From Heteronotia binoei (lineage: Eukaryota): a stretch of 64,000 bases of DNA. The position numbers are program-made. Shown piece after piece: positions 45,001 through 51,000 of this stretch (position 1 is its first letter; every line of letters begins with the position of its first letter). The stretch is from the NCBI RefSeq assembly GCF_032191835.1, contig NC_083231.1, positions 126,356,001-126,420,000 of the forward strand. Reading direction: 5' to 3'.

Positions 45001-48000
45001 TCACTCCAAAAGCTCTCTGAGCTGGAGAAGAGACACCTGCCTGCCAAGAGGCTACGTCTGTCAATGGCTACTAGTCACAGGGGCTGAGGGGCACTAAAGC
45101 TCTGAATCCCAGGGGAAGGCGTTAGCCTCTTGTTGGTCCTCCAGAGGCAGTGGTTGACCTGACCCAGCAGGGCTCTTCCGATGCTCTTTTCAGGAGAAGG
45201 CCTCGGCCTCTCTGCCCCATTGTTGGCCCTCCAGAGGAACTGCCTGGCCACTCTGTGAGACAGGAGGCTGGACTAGATGGACCCTCACTGGTCTGACCCA
45301 TCAGGGCTCTTCTAATGCTCTTCTCAGGGGAAGGGCTCAGCCTCTCTGCCCCGTTGTTGGCCCTCCAGAGGAACTGGCTGGCCACTGTGAGAGACAGGAG
45401 GCTGGGACTAGATGGACCCTCCGTGGTCTGACCCAGCAGGGCTCTTCTAATACTCTTCTCAAGGGAAGGCCTCAGCCTCTCTGCCCCGTTGTTGGCCCTC
45501 CGGAGGAACTGGTTGGCCACTGTGTGAGACAGGAGGCTGGACTAGGTGGACCCTCCCTGGTCTGACCCAGCAGGGCTCTTCTGATGTTCTTATGAAAGCC
45601 TCTCTGCCCTGTTGTTGGCCCTCCAGAGGAACTGGCTGCCCACTGTGTGAGGCAGGAGGCTGGACTAGATGGACCCTCCCTGGTCTGACCAGCAGGGCTC
45701 TTCTGGTGTTCTTCTCAGGGGAAGGCCTCAGCCTCTCTGCCCTGTTGTTGGCCCTCCAGAGGAACTGGATTCCCTGCTGGCCTGTCCAGCCAAGCTGAGA
45801 GGCATTTGTTTCAATAGAGGGAGAGGATACAGGCCACATGATCAAATGATCTTAAGGGACCCTTCACATCCGGGCCACTTGCTATTTGAGATTTTACCAT
45901 CAGGTAGGCGATATAGAGTGTTGAAGGCAAAGACAAATAGATTCAAGGACAGCTTGTATCCAAGTGCCGTGGTTAAGCTAAATGCAGGGTTATGAATGGT
46001 TATGTGTTTTTAGATGCATTTAAATGGTCTATGTATATGTCCTTTTGTAGATGTGATTTTGGTATGTTTGTGGAAGAGCACCTCATTTCGTTGCTCTCAT
46101 NNNNNNNNNNNNNNNNNNNNNNNNNNNNNNNNNNNNNNNNNNNNNNNNNNNNNNNNNNNNNNNNNNNNNNNNNNNNNNNNNNNNNNNNNNNNNNNNNNNN
46201 NNNNNNNNNNNNNNNNNNNNNNNNNNNNNNNNNNNNNNAATGCAGAAAGGTTGTTTCCATTCTGAACCCCCAACCAGCAGCCTAAAATGGCTCACGTGCC
46301 CCCCCCCCCCCTTCTGACCAGACTGCTCCTTACCTGCTCGCTGGCCAAGAAGACCATCACGTCTCCAGCTTCCTCCTCCTTGTGCAGCTCCAGCACGGCT
46401 TGGCAGGCAGCAGCCACCCGGCCCTGAGGAGGGAGGGCTCCCGGTAGGTCAGGCGGGGGGCAGGGGCAAGCGGCGGCACCCGCACCAGCGGGGCATCAGG
46501 ACAGAAGCGGCAGAGTGGCTCCTCCAGCGAGGGGCTCCATCACCACTATGAGGCGCAGCTCGGGGCGCTGGCGCTGAGCGTCCTTCAGCAGTCCCAGGAG
46601 CAGGTCTGTGGCCACCGTGCGCTCCTGGGCCTCATCCAGCACCACCACCCCATACTGCCGCAGCAGGGGGTCAGAGGTCATCTCCTGCAAGAGGACCTCA
46701 TCCGAGCAGAACCTGCAACCCACACAAGGGCAGGTGGTGACCTAGAAGAGGCTGCGCTACCGGCCCCTCAATCACCAGCACTTCCCAGCGAGACCACGCA
46801 ATAAGTGACAGCCGACAAAGGCCCCCAACGAGACAGCCAAGCAGCAAAGCACCCCTTACCTGAGCAGGGTCTCCGGGATGCAGCAGTCCTCGTAGGGGAT
46901 GCAGTAGCCCACCTCGTGGCCCACGTTGAGGTCCATTTCATCTGCCACGCGCAGGGCCAGGCTCAAGGCAGCCAAGCTGTGGGGCTGAGCGCAGACCACC
47001 TGGCCATGGGCAAACTGCAGTGAAAGCGCATACTCCGCACACCACTGAGGCACCTGAGGAAGGAAGGATGAAGGAAGGCAAACCTGAGTGCTCCTCCTCC
47101 TCACTAGAGCACGACCCTGGCCCATCTGGGAAAGGCTGCTCCCCAGAAGACACCACCCGAGGAGGAGAGATGGCACAGGCAGCGTGTGTCACTCTGGGGG
47201 GCCCAGCTTCAAGAGCTGCTGTCCCTGGCTCAGTCGCCAGTCTCCAACCCTGCACAGGAGTCCAGCAGAACTGAGGCAGAAAAACAGGTTTTGGCTGCTT
47301 CACACCCCAACTGCGAGAAGGTCCAGTGAGAGCAGATATGCTTCTCAATTGCACACATTTGCCACAGAACAGCATCTGCTGAATCATAGGTGGTGCATTC
47401 AGTACGGTTAAAGTTGGCTGGATAAGAAATAAGCAGTGCAAATATTCTCCCCTCCCAATCAAAGACGTCATGCTTTTTGGTGGTTCTACCCCCTGTGCCT
47501 ATCCCGCTGCAACAACGCAGCCAGGCAAGGGATCCAAAGGAGCCAGCGAGGGACCCCCCCCACTCCTGTCCTCTGGGCCAAGGGGCCACTCGGCTGCCTG
47601 GCGAGGCAGTAAGCCCCCCCCCTGGGGGAGGAAGAGGCAGGCGGGGGGGGGCGCTGCAGACCCTCCCCTCCCCTCCCCCCCCCCGGGGACTGGCCTGGGT
47701 GCTCTTGCCGGCGCTCTGCAGCCCCCCCCCCCGTTGCCCCAGCAGGCAGAAGAGGCAGGCTGGGGGGGGGGGCGCTGCAGACCCTCCCCTCCCCTCCCCC
47801 CCCCCGGGGACTGGCCTGGGTGCTCTTGCCGGCGCTGGGGCTCTGCAGCCCCCCCCCCCGTTGCCCCAGCAGGCAGACGTGCCCCGCCAGGAAGAGGCAG
47901 GCGGGGGGGGGGGGGCGCTGCAGGCCCTCCTCTCCCTCCCCCCCCCGCGGGGGACTGGCCCGGGTGCTCTTGCCGGGGCTCTGCAGCCCCCCCCCCGGTG

Positions 48001-51000
48001 CCCCAGCAGGCAGACGTGCCCCGCCAGGAAGAGGCAGGCTGGGGGGGGCGCCGCAGACCCTCCTCTCCCCTCCCTCCCCCCCCCCCCCCGGGGACTGGCC
48101 TGGGTGCTCTTGCCGGCGCCGGGGGGCCCGGAGAGGAGCAGGAGCGGCGGGCGGCGGTGGAGGTGGCGCAGGAAGGCCTCCTTGGCGGGCCAGGCCGGCA
48201 GCCCCCGGCGCCCCCGCAGCAGCTCGGCGTAGCGCGACGAGAAGGGCAGCCCGTCGAAGGGGTTCCGCGGCAGCTCTCCTTCCTCCTCCTCTCTCCGCGC
48301 CTCCATGGCCGGCCTGCCGGGGGAAGCGATGACCCCGCCCACCCCCCTGCGGCCCCCGGGGACAGGGGCACGTGACGCCACTGCTAGCCAATGGGCCGCT
48401 CGCTTCCTCTTCCTCTGGCGGGGGCGGAGCCGAGGGGCACTTCCGGCCACGCGCCCGCTCGTGGGGAGCGCTCTTTCCTCGCGCATGCGCTCCGCCTGCC
48501 GGCCCTGGTCCGGCGGGAGACCCAGAGCAAAGAGAGAGAGAGAGAGGGAAGGAAGGAAGGAAGGGGGCTCCGGGGCCTCCAAGACTCCCACCCTGCGAGA
48601 GGGGCCTTCGCCAGTCCAAAGACCTCTTTGGTTCAGCATCTGTATCATAAAGTTGGAAGGGACCTCCAGGGCCATCTAGTCGAACCCCCTGCACAATGCA
48701 GGAAACTCACAAACACCTCCCCCTAAATTCACAGGATCCTCATTACTGTCAGATGGCCCTCTAGCCTCTGCTTCAAAACCTCCAAGGAAGGAGAGCCCAC
48801 CACCTCCCCAGGAGGAAGCCTGTTCCACTGAGGAACCGCTCTGTCAGGAAGTGCTTCCTAATAGAATATAGAATCCTAGAGTTGGAAGGCACCCCCAGGT
48901 CACCTAGTCCAACTCCCTGCACAATGCAGGAAACTCACAAACGCCTCCCCCTAAATTCACAGGATCTTCATTGCTCTCAGATGGCCATCTAGCCTCTGTT
49001 GAAAAACCTTCAAGGAAGGAGAGCCCACCACCTCCCGAGGAGGAAGCCTGTTCCACTGAGGAATCGCTCTAACGGACAGGAAGTTCTTCCTAATGTTGAG
49101 CCAGAAACTCTTTTGATCTACTTTCAATTTATCAATGGTTTGGATTTGGAGGAAGGAAGAGAGGGGATGCTTATTGAATCTGCAGAGGATACTAAATTGG
49201 GAGCGGTCTCAAATACAGTAGAAGACAGAAACAGGATGATCTTGACAGGCTGGAAAGCTGGGCTGAAACCAATAAAATGGATTTAATGCGGATACATGTA
49301 AAGTTTTGCATTTCAGAAGGAAAAATCCAATGCATAGTCATAGATGGGGAGACTTGTCTTAGGAGTAGTATATGCGAAAAGAATCTAGGGGTCTTAGTGG
49401 GCCATACGCTGAACATGAGTCAACAGTGTGGCTCAAAAGGCAAATGCGATTCTGGGCTGTATCAACAGAAGTACAGCGTCCAGATCGCGTGATGTGATGG
49501 TATCACTTTACTCTGCCCTGGTAAGACCTCACCTGGAGTCTCGTGTTCAGTTTTGGGCACAAGAAGGAGATAGACAAATTGGAGTGGGTCCAGAGGAGGG
49601 CAATGAAGATGACGAGGGGTTTGCATTGTGCAGGGATTTGAAGAGGGGGGTGGTTTCAAATGCTGAATTTGGGGTAGTGCAAGTTTGAGAGGTGGTTTGG
49701 TGTAGTGGTTAAGTGTGCCGACTCTTATCTGGGAGAACCGGGTTGGATTCCCCACTCCTCCACTTGCACCTGCTGGAATGGCCTTGGGGCAGCCATACCT
49801 CTTGCAGTTGTCCTTGAAAGGGCAGCTGCTGTGAGAGCTCTCTCAGCCCCATCCACCTCACAAGGTGTCTGTTATGGGGGAAGAAGATAAAGTTTATTTC
49901 AATTTGTATTTTAGTTTCAAGGAGATTGTAAGCCACTCTGAGACTCTGTCCTTGAAAGGGCAGCTTTTGGAGAGCTCTCTCAGCCCCACCTACCTCACAG
50001 GGTGTCTGTTGTGGGGAAAGGAGATTGTGACTGCTCTGAGACTCCTTCGGGTAACAAAGAGTGAGGTATAAATTCTACCTTGTTGGAAGGGGCTCAGGAT
50101 TTTGTGGTGTGTGACCAGCATGGGCCTGTCTGAAAAAATAGCCCCGCATACTTTGCATCTCACACGCTAGACCTGGTGGCTGGGGAGGGAGGTGATCTGA
50201 AGGGGGTGGAACTGCCCCATCCTGGGCAGAGCAGTCCCTGCTGGGGCTCAGACTTAAAGTGACACCTCGACTTCATGGTGGGAGGGAAAATTAAAAGCTT
50301 CTGCCCTCGTAGCCTGATGGATGTGACTGGCTGTTTCAGGGGGTGGGTTGGGGATTTTCCTGGTCATCTGGTTGGTGCTCCTGCCAGTGCCCTGGCTGAG
50401 GCACGAGGACATTCTGTGGGCAGCTGACAGCCCTCTCTCAAGCTGTCCTCTGGTTCTCTGAAGGGCTGCGGATGTCGCAGATACAAAGCAGAGGGCTAAA
50501 GCAACAATGGAGAATCACTCAGGATGCATCCAGCAAGATACAAGCTACGCCTCGCCATTATCATCACTGCTGTGCGCCAGAGATGCCAAGAAGATGGCAT
50601 CCCTTCCTCACCATTGTGTCTGCACCTCACAGGCCTGTGTGATCAGCTTGCAGGAGAAGCTGTGTTTAAAACCTCTCACATCTGTGCCAATGTGGACACT
50701 GCAATAGCAACCACAGGGTCAGATGGTACCAGAGCAACAGCTGTTGTTGGAAAAGGCAAGCGGCTCACTTTGCAGTCATTATGGGGTTAACTGATGCTGT
50801 TGTTCAGTCGCACAGTTGAGTCTGACTCTTTGCGACCCCCTGGACAAAGTCACGCCAGGCCCTCCTGTCTTCCACCATCCTCCGAAGTCTGCTCAAATTC
50901 ATGTTTGTTACATCAGTAACACTGTCCAGCCATCTCAACTTCTGCTGTCCCCTTCTTCTTTTGCCTTCTGTCTTTCCTGACATCAGGATCTTCTCCAGGA

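What the first reader, a model, noticed from the sequence alone, without database searches (positions are those of the whole stretch)
47620..48115. DQX1 intron 1 is GC-AG and its Walker-A/donor junction is quadruplicated
Seen: exon 1 ends GKSTQ at CAG|GCCAGT with no suitable in-frame GT nearby. The same GC donor context recurs at 47960, 47816 and 47695, so the GC is unlikely to be a base-call error. As assembled, the 47695 donor is in frame (+405 nt) with an open reading frame, which would insert 135 Gly/Pro-rich residues, including extra GKST copies, directly after motif I. Inference: a weak GC donor competing with three decoys could give alternative or unproductive isoforms.
Basis: partly seen in the sequence, partly recalled or inferred. 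Interest (0 to 1): 0.65.

Follow-up and report, generated by a model that had tools for sequence, protein, structure and literature searches.

The report
Repeated GC splice donor in gecko DQX1
The first intron of a gecko DQX1 helicase gene starts with the rarer GC instead of GT, and a short stretch spanning that exon-intron border is repeated four times in a row, a known kind of arrangement in which the extra copies usually stay unused.

Summary
DQX1 lies on the minus strand (ATG 48306, stop near 41410; 11 coding exons). Exon 1 ends ...GAGKSTQ at 48100 with CAG|GCCAGT. Exon 2 starts VPQWCAEY at 47053 after a strong acceptor, so intron 1 (1046 nt) is GC-AG. The other 9 donors are GT. A 121-144 nt unit covering the last ~20 nt of exon 1, the donor and ~100-120 nt of intron occurs four times. 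The donor-equivalents end at 48100, 47960, 47816 and 47695.

The window is a gecko, not human. No transcript data for this species were available. A transcript-like gecko ortholog and 40 other DQX1 proteins read GKSTQ|V/IPQW with no insertion. Three of six gecko gene models skip the Walker A motif, as a GT-only predictor would.

The +405 nt in-frame reading is arithmetically right but fragile. It crosses nine G/C homopolymers of 8-14 nt, all six frames are open there, and exon 3 of the same gene carries two frame-breaking indels as assembled. Only one extra GKSTQ is in frame.

The closest precedent is the boundary-spanning minisatellite of human F7 intron 7, where only the upstream site is used. 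Verdict: a new member of a known kind, of modest interest.

The parts
48100..48306 (-). DQX1 exon 1 coding part (ATG 48306; 69 codons; ends [10 protein letters not shown], Walker A / motif I)
   Evidence: Exon-only search finds squamate DQX1. In the ortholog P0002 the motif aligns with GSGKTTQ of DHX15.
47054..48099 (-). Intron 1, 1046 nt, GC-AG (donor CAG|GCCAGT, acceptor ...ttccttcctcag|GTG)
   Evidence: Phase 0 is required by the GKSTQ|VPQW junction seen in orthologs.
48094..48099 (-). Authentic GC donor GCCAGT (7 of 9 consensus positions with the CAG before it; mismatches at +2 and +3)
47981..48120 (-). Repeat copy 1 (spans the exon 1 / intron 1 boundary)
47837..47980 (-). Repeat copy 2. 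Pseudo-donor CGG|GCCAGT, exon-equivalent ends at 47960 (+140 nt, frame shifted).
47716..47836 (-). Repeat copy 3, with an 18-nt deletion. Pseudo-donor CAG|GCCAGT, exon-equivalent ends at 47816 (+284 nt, frame shifted).
47629..47715 (-). Repeat copy 4, whose 3' part diverges. Pseudo-donor CAG|GCCAGT, exon-equivalent ends at 47695 (+405 nt, in frame as assembled).
48058..48089 (-). G-quadruplex-type G-run block starting 10 nt downstream of the authentic donor. Equivalent blocks lie at 47925-47946, 47782-47805 and 47661-47684, and further ones at 47849-47867 and 47722-47740.
   Evidence: (regex scan): 7 sense-strand blocks and 0 antisense blocks in 47500-48400
47054..47084 (-). Polypyrimidine tract and AG acceptor of intron 1 (24 of 28 pyrimidines in 47057-47084)
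46860..47053 (-). DQX1 exon 2 ([13 protein letters not shown]...), donor CAG|GTAAGG
46334..46712 (-). DQX1 exon 3 (DEAQ box VLDEAQERT). As assembled it has 1 surplus nt at 46531 and 2 surplus nt at 46430-46431, with TGA at 46496-46498.

Best explanation
This is the 5' end of a gecko DQX1 gene (a DEAH/RHA-type helicase with a DEAQ box). Its first intron is a genuine U2-type GC-AG intron. A locus-specific tandem duplication (a minisatellite of about four 121-144 bp units) has its first unit spanning the exon 1 / intron 1 border. The last ~20 nt of exon 1 (codons for AGKSTQ), the GC donor and the G-run-rich start of the intron are therefore reiterated three more times inside the intron. I infer that the most upstream donor (48099) is the one mainly used and gives the conserved GKSTQ|VPQW mRNA. 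It would be favoured because it is transcribed first and is the only copy attached to real exon 1 and cap context. The G-runs lying between it and each pseudo-site would act as intronic enhancers for the upstream site. The strong acceptor would help a weak GC site. The three downstream copies would be largely silent pseudo-sites. If used, copies 2 and 3 shift the frame and give a stop 30 codons into exon 2 (a nonsense-mediated-decay substrate by the usual rule). Copy 4 would add 135 residues inside the P-loop/helix unit as assembled. Shown here: the sequence architecture, the gene identity, the phase-0 junction and the GC in all four copies. Inferred: which donor is used and why.
For: Gene and junction. 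Exon-by-exon searches hit DQX1 of squamates. The ortholog P0002 maps to 11 exons at 41410-48306. It aligns end to end with DHX15, E 5.5e-158, with GKSTQ on motif I. All 10 donors were read: 9 are GT and 1 is GC. All 10 acceptors are AG. No usable GT exists: 37 of 38 GT sites score 5/9 or less.

Orthologs. I examined 47 proteins, chosen from the 123 held (46 named plus P0002). Of these, 46 carry the PQWC motif, 41 read GKSTQ|V/IPQW, 0 have an insertion and 5 have aberrant N-termini. P0002 sits on a 2562-nt contig, so it is transcript-like. Three of the six gecko models (P0006, P0008, P0009) skip the Walker A motif. P0006 and P0008 break off inside exon 1, as a GT-only predictor would; P0009 has an unrelated N-terminus.

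Repeat reality. The copies differ by substitutions. Copy 1 against copies 3 and 4 is 81 of 85 aligned bases. Copy 2 against the others is 76-80 matches with 7-9 mismatches. Copy 3 against copy 4 is 85 of 85. The unit is found nowhere else in the window.

Precedent (PMC1557585, abstract and passages read). Minisatellites whose first monomer spans an exon-intron boundary occur in F7, LMNB2 and PDGF, where only the authentic upstream site is used. The paper states that intronic enhancers between competing 5' sites favour the upstream site. G-tracts near 5' splice sites recruit U1 through hnRNP F/H (PMC5778605, passages). Strong adjacent splice sites help weak GC sites (PMC3167603, section heading and passages).
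Against: No transcript or read data for this species were available, so donor usage is pure inference. P0002 is from another gecko (about 84% identity over the exon-level matches), and whether that species has the repeat is unknown. The donor is weak: it has mismatches at both +2 and +3, and its crude U1 duplex energy is -5.8 kcal/mol, against -4.5 to -11.6 for the eight GT donors scored in register. The pseudo-sites are identical to it from about -20 to +75. [quoted passage not shown] The F7 precedent concerns GT sites of an internal exon with 37-bp spacing, not GC sites of a first exon. In the 6-16 and CBS genes the first two pseudo-sites are used (PMC1557585). The assembly has indel problems in this very gene, so copy number and unit lengths may be inexact.
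Confidence: 0.6

Rival explanations
1. One reading: the four equivalent weak GC donors really compete. A sizeable share of transcripts would then use a pseudo-site, giving frame-shifted NMD targets (copies 2 and 3) or a +135-residue protein (copy 4). The array would lower or tune DQX1 output.
For: The sites are identical over the 9-nt donor in 3 of 4 copies, and over about 95 nt between copies 3 and 4. Each is followed by the same G-run block. Intron-proximal preference is reported for duplicated sites (PMC3413131). The first two pseudo-sites are used in the 6-16 and CBS genes (PMC1557585). GC-AG genes are reported as more prone to alternative splicing (PMC7242645 abstract).
Against: In F7, LMNB2 and PDGF only the upstream site is used (PMC1557585). 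None of the 46 motif-bearing orthologous proteins has an insertion at this junction. No database protein of 358-2000 residues matches the 135-residue insert (this is weak evidence, since the species seems absent from the database). The insert would split the strand-P-loop-helix unit of motif I (alignment).
Confidence: 0.2
2. The array is materially mis-assembled. The true locus has fewer or more units, or different homopolymer lengths, so the quadruplication and the +405 frame are properties of the assembly and not of the genome.
For: Twelve G/C homopolymers of 9-14 nt lie in 47590-48125, and nine of 8-14 nt lie between 47695 and 48100. Exon 3 of the same gene has a surplus nt in a C-run and a surplus CT in a CT-rich run, which break a conserved frame. 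There are four N stretches in the window, one of them 1.4 kb downstream in intron 3.
Against: The copies differ by base substitutions and by an 18-nt indel, not only by homopolymer length. This is not what a stutter or collapse artefact gives. The boundary copy joins seamlessly to conserved exon 1.
Confidence: 0.13
3. DQX1 is decaying in this lineage. The weak GC donor, the decoys and the exon 3 frameshifts with a premature TGA would all be real lesions of a young pseudogene.
For: As assembled, exon 3 is broken by +1 and +2 nt, with a TGA at 46496-46498. The donor deviates at +2 and +3.
Against: All 11 exons are present and co-linear with the ortholog. All nine other donors and all ten acceptors are canonical. 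The 33 residues between the two indels are conserved in the other frame (30 of 33 identical to P0002 by eye). The two indels sit in low-complexity runs typical of read errors.
Confidence: 0.07

Closest known systems
Boundary-spanning minisatellites with reiterated 5' pseudo-sites: human F7 intron 7 (37-bp VNTR), LMNB2 (100-bp unit), PDGF intron 4 (81-bp unit), interferon-inducible 6-16 and CBS intron 13 (PMC1557585; abstract and passages read)
   Same: A tandem repeat whose first unit contains the exon-intron junction, so the exact donor is repeated in the intron. The unit size here (121-144 bp) is close to the LMNB2 and PDGF units. The pseudo-sites are identical to the authentic site.
   Different: Here the donor is GC, not GT. 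The exon is the first exon, so no upstream 3' splice site can define it. There are only about four units, which have diverged. The exon part is longer (about 20 nt, encoding the Walker A motif, against 4 nt in F7). Usage and copy-number polymorphism are untested. The host is a gecko, not a mammal.
U2-type GC-AG introns (about 0.8% of protein-coding introns and 1.2% of first introns in human and mouse, PMC7242645; about 1% of human introns, PMC3167603)
   Same: GC at +1/+2 and AG at the 3' end. It is the first intron, it is short, and it has a strong acceptor.
   Different: The papers report that GC donors on average compensate with a stronger remaining consensus (PMC3167603). This one also mismatches at +3 (C), leaving 7 of 9. 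That +3 is normally a purine comes from the consensus MAG/GURAGU quoted in that paper.
Intronic G-run / G-quadruplex elements next to 5' splice sites (PMC5778605; PMC2275096, search listing only)
   Same: G-run blocks start 10 nt downstream of each donor, on the sense strand only, in the first intron close to the promoter.
   Different: No binding or folding evidence exists here. RNA folding of the region is no more stable than shuffled sequence (z +0.44).

Membership tests
U2-type GC-AG intron | GC at intron positions +1/+2 and AG at the 3' end, at the junction required by the conserved protein | tested here: met
   CAG|GCCAGT at 48099 and cctcag|GTG at 47054. The phase-0 GKSTQ|VPQW junction is seen in 41 of 46 motif-bearing orthologs.
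U2-type GC-AG intron | The rest of the donor fits the U1/U6 consensus, usually better than average | tested here: inconclusive
   7 of 9 positions match. Positions -3 to +1 and +4 to +6 fit, but +3 is C. No calibrated splice-site scorer was available.
U2-type GC-AG intron | Not a U12-type intron | tested here: met
   The donor GCCAGTCC has no resemblance to the U12 donor motif (motif recalled, not from a call). A pyrimidine tract directly precedes the AG.
U2-type GC-AG intron | Junction used in transcripts of this species | not testable with these tools
   No reads or transcripts of the species are held. Only a transcript-like ortholog (P0002) shows the same protein junction.
Boundary-spanning minisatellite (F7 intron 7 type) | Tandem array whose first monomer contains the exon-intron junction | tested here: met
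Boundary-spanning minisatellite (F7 intron 7 type) | Donor sequence reiterated identically in the intron | tested here: met
   The 9-mer CAG|GCCAGT occurs at 3 of 4 copies, and CGG|GCCAGT at the fourth.
Boundary-spanning minisatellite (F7 intron 7 type) | Only the most upstream site (or the first few) is used | not testable with these tools
   No expression data are available.
Boundary-spanning minisatellite (F7 intron 7 type) | Copy number polymorphic (VNTR) | not testable with these tools
   Only a single assembly is available.
DQX1 ortholog (DEAQ-box DEAH/RHA helicase) | Motif I GxGKS/T and motif II DEAQ | tested here: met
   GAGKST is in exon 1 and VLDEAQERT is in exon 3.
DQX1 ortholog (DEAQ-box DEAH/RHA helicase) | HA2 winged-helix and ratchet domains | tested here: met
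   Pfam HA2_N 33.7 bits and HA2_C 34.6 bits, both above their cut-offs, on the ORF at 43620-43991.
DQX1 ortholog (DEAQ-box DEAH/RHA helicase) | Best hits are proteins named DQX1; conserved neighbourhood | tested here: met
   AUP1-like and HTRA2-like reading frames lie upstream at about 62500-63500. These two names come from recalled motifs, not from a search.
DQX1 ortholog (DEAQ-box DEAH/RHA helicase) | Intact open reading frame | tested here: not met
   As assembled, exon 3 has +1 and +2 nt and a TGA. This is probably an assembly error, but that is not proven.

The most novel reading that the evidence does not exclude
The array could be a natural splice-site-choice experiment not covered by published cases. 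It offers four sequence-identical, very weak GC donors of a first exon, each followed by a G-quadruplex-type block. Two outcomes would be new. One is strict use of the cap-proximal copy, which would extend 'oriented scanning' to GC sites and to first exons, against the intron-proximal rule. The other is that copy number acts as a heritable dial on DQX1 output through frame-shifted, decay-prone isoforms, with the in-frame fourth copy giving a lineage-specific insertion after the P-loop.
Probability: 0.12. Interest if true: 0.5.

Novelty: new member of a known kind. Interest (0 to 1): 0.3.

Why it matters
First, for annotation. Gene predictors that insist on GT lose the Walker A motif of DQX1 at this junction. 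Two public gecko models (Gekko kuhli, Sphaerodactylus townsendi) break off inside exon 1 and lack it, and a third (Gekko japonicus) has an unrelated N-terminus. A reader could wrongly conclude that geckos have an ATPase-dead DQX1.

Second, as a caution. An open, in-frame reading across G/C homopolymer-rich sequence says nothing about coding, especially in an assembly that already shows indels in a conserved exon.

Third, it adds a non-mammalian example with a GC donor and a first exon to the small set of boundary-spanning minisatellites used to study how the spliceosome chooses among identical 5' sites.

The function of DQX1 itself is little studied. The 15 best-ranked of 82 papers naming it (listing only) are mostly methylation or expression surveys, and three are unrelated mathematics or engineering papers. 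The physiological stakes are therefore unknown.

Tried and rejected
1. A GT donor hidden nearby. All 38 GT sites between the ATG and the acceptor were listed. None fits both the consensus and the phase. CCA|GTCCCC, 4 nt downstream of the GC site, is 3/9 and in phase 1.

2. A special RNA structure masking the decoys. The minimum free energy is -360.6 kcal/mol for 536 nt, against a shuffle mean of -364.2 (z +0.44; 69 of 100 shuffles fold at least as well). The four single units give z +1.86, -0.60, +1.09 and -0.26. No signal.

3. A known RNA family in 46800-48700. The 8 Rfam matches score 19-24 bits against gathering scores of 58-105. Rejected.

4. The unit as a dispersed repeat. Only short G-run matches occur elsewhere in the window. 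Rejected.

5. A database protein carrying the 135-residue insert. None scored E <= 0.001 among 8000 candidates. This is weak, because the best exon-2 hit is 95% identical, so the species itself seems absent.

6. Pfam on single exons. Only AAA_16 below its cut-off on the exon 1 read-through, and HA2 domains on one exon. Short exons are poor queries.

7. The U1 duplex energy for the intron 5 donor was computed in the wrong register. No value is given. By reading the sequence it is TAG|GTGAGT.

8. Donor dinucleotide in related species. This could not be done, because no eukaryotic genome collection was on hand and genome contigs holds only bacteria and archaea. The closed collections metagenome contigs and viral contigs were not used.

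
Full report
What is there. The finding lies on the minus strand. Read in that direction, an ATG at 48306 opens 69 codons ending ...[15 protein letters not shown] at 48100. These are followed by GCCAGT and a run of G/C homopolymers. Exon 2 begins at 47053 with [13 protein letters not shown]... It follows a pyrimidine-rich tract (24 of 28 pyrimidines in 47057-47084) and an AG. Intron 1 is therefore 1046 nt, phase 0, and GC-AG.

Identity and origin. I searched the model exon by exon.
- Exon 1 alone finds 7 proteins at E <= 0.001 among 361 candidates, all vertebrate DQX1 models or unnamed relatives carrying the same HA2 and OB-fold Pfam domains.
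- Exon 2 alone finds 186 proteins at E <= 1e-8 among 221 candidates. The best are three gecko DQX1 proteins at 95% identity.
- Local tblastn places the window nearest to geckos (83-86% over the exon-level matches) and further from other squamates (73-75%).
- I take the window for a gecko, not human.
- The ortholog P0002 maps co-linearly to 11 exons between 48306 and 41410. It aligns end to end with DHX15 (E 5.5e-158), and its GAGKSTQ lies on motif I GSGKTTQ.
- Exon 3 carries the DEAQ box. Pfam HA2 domains are found on a later exon.

The GC donor.
- All ten donors were read. Nine are GT, with 5-8 of 9 consensus positions. Intron 1 is CAG|GCCAGT, 7 of 9, with mismatches at +2 and +3. The intron 5 donor was read by eye, because both scripts used a wrong register.
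- All ten acceptors are AG.
- Among 38 GT dinucleotides between the ATG and the acceptor, 37 match at 5 or fewer of 9 positions. The one 6/9 site lies 30 nt before the acceptor.
- The protein junction is conserved. I examined 47 proteins, picked from the 123 held. They were 46 named ones chosen across clades plus P0002. The other unnamed hits were left out because some could be fragments or of unclear origin.
- Of those 47, 46 carry the PQWC motif, 41 read GKSTQ|V/IPQW, none has an insertion, and five have aberrant N-termini.
- Three of the five aberrant ones are gecko models, out of six gecko models examined. The Gekko kuhli and Sphaerodactylus models keep the start of exon 1 but jump to exon 2 before the P-loop. 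A GT-only predictor would do this if the true donor were not GT. This hints that the GC is shared among geckos, but it does not prove it. The Gekko japonicus model has an unrelated N-terminus.
- GC in all four repeat copies, which differ from one another by substitutions, argues that the C is real and older than the duplications.

The repeat.
- Tandem Repeats Finder reports periods of 121 and 137 over 47631-48116.
- The 21-mer spanning GKSTQ and the donor occurs four times, against none expected.
- Donor-equivalents end at 48100, 47960 (CGG, not CAG), 47816 and 47695. The spacings are 140, 144 and 121 nt.
- In the shared core, copies 3 and 4 are identical at 85 of 85 aligned bases. Copy 1 differs from them at 4 of 85. 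Copy 2 differs from the others at 7-9 positions. Copy 3 lacks 18 nt.
- The unit occurs nowhere else in the window.
- This is a local, multi-step tandem duplication whose first unit spans the exon-intron border.
- On the sense strand each donor is followed 10 nt later by a G-quadruplex-type block. There are 7 such blocks in 47500-48400 on the sense strand and none on the other strand.

The in-frame claim. The offset of +405 nt is a multiple of three and the frame is open. This carries little weight, for four reasons.
- All six frames are open across the array, which is 79% G+C.
- The 405 nt cross nine homopolymers of 8-14 nt.
- Exon 3 of this gene, as assembled, has one surplus base in a C-run (46531) and two surplus bases in a CT-rich run (46430-46431). 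Between them, 33 conserved residues sit in another frame, and the main frame has a TGA. Homopolymer lengths in this assembly therefore cannot be trusted to the base.
- Only the last GKSTQ is in frame. Copies 2 and 3 (+140 and +284) shift the frame and would meet a stop 30 codons into exon 2.

How it most likely works. The architecture matches a class described in PMC1557585 (abstract and passages read). These are minisatellites whose first monomer spans an exon-intron boundary.
- In F7 intron 7, and according to that paper in LMNB2 and PDGF, only the most upstream site is used.
- In the 6-16 and CBS genes the first two pseudo-sites are used as well.
- The same paper notes that intronic enhancers placed between competing 5' sites favour the upstream site.
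- G-tracts near 5' sites are reported to recruit U1 through hnRNP F/H (PMC5778605, passages).
- Strong neighbouring splice sites are reported to help weak GC sites (PMC3167603, passages).

I therefore commit to predominant use of the authentic upstream donor, with largely silent pseudo-sites (confidence 0.6). Against this stands work with duplicated strong sites, which shows intron-proximal preference that depends on high U1 occupancy (PMC3413131, passages). In addition, the F7 case concerns GT sites of an internal exon. Usage here is inferred, not shown.

Comparison and novelty.
- GC-AG introns make up about 0.8% of protein-coding introns and 1.2% of first introns in human and mouse (PMC7242645, abstract and passages).
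- Boundary-spanning minisatellites are known.
- The combination seen here was not found in print by my searches. That combination is a GC donor, a first exon, the Walker A codons inside the repeated unit, and a gecko host. 'DQX1' with 'GC-AG' gave 0 papers. The minisatellite search gave 3 papers, of which only the F7 paper describes such a case.
- It is a new member of a known kind.

Left open.
- The donor dinucleotide in other species, copy-number polymorphism and transcript evidence could not be checked. No eukaryotic genome or read collection was available.
- The closed collections and paper supplements were not seen.
- The N stretches (4124-4450, 11555-11724, 46101-46238, 53194-53715) were left as they are. 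The third lies in intron 3 and interrupts no mapped exon.

Noticed in passing
window 46334-46712 (minus strand, DQX1 exon 3): As assembled, the exon has one surplus base at 46531 (a C-run) and two surplus bases at 46430-46431 (a CT-rich run). The 33 residues between them are conserved in another frame, and the main frame hits TGA at 46496-46498. This is either assembly indels or a very young lesion.
   Followed up: yes
whole window: There are 93 homopolymer runs of 8 nt or more, and 88 of them are G or C. Long G/C runs also sit in other DQX1 introns (near 46300, 43100 and 41640). This is either a property of this genome or of the sequencing chemistry.
   Followed up: partly
proteins P0006, P0008, P0009 (public gecko DQX1 models): The Sphaerodactylus townsendi and Gekko kuhli models jump from inside exon 1 to VPQW and lack the Walker A motif. 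The Gekko japonicus model has an unrelated N-terminus. These are likely annotation artefacts at this junction.
   Followed up: partly
window 47695-47980 (minus strand): The segments between each internal CTGCAG and the following pseudo-donor are 21, 27 and 21 nt, all multiples of three ([23 protein letters not shown]). They look like possible micro-exons, but the AG is preceded by G-runs and not by a pyrimidine tract.
   Followed up: no
window 36913-37116 (plus strand) and protein P0028: An intermediate-filament rod-end motif ([22 protein letters not shown]) lies downstream of DQX1 on the other strand. A Phrynosoma gene model fuses DQX1 exon 2 with an IF rod domain (Pfam PF00038), which suggests the same neighbour in other lizards.
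   Followed up: no
window 62527-63063 (minus) and 62878-63465 (plus): The reading frames resemble AUP1 (..NHVTHFDHNVV..) and HTRA2 (..NFIADVAEKTAPALVYVEILGR), arranged head to head upstream of DQX1. The names come from recalled motifs and were not searched.
   Followed up: no
window 50804-52013 and 53741-54978 (minus strand); 63400-64000: Reverse-transcriptase-like ORFs (LINE fragments) lie between AUP1 and DQX1. Further protein-level tandem repeats are visible in ORF translations near 53745-54250 and 63400-64000.
   Followed up: no
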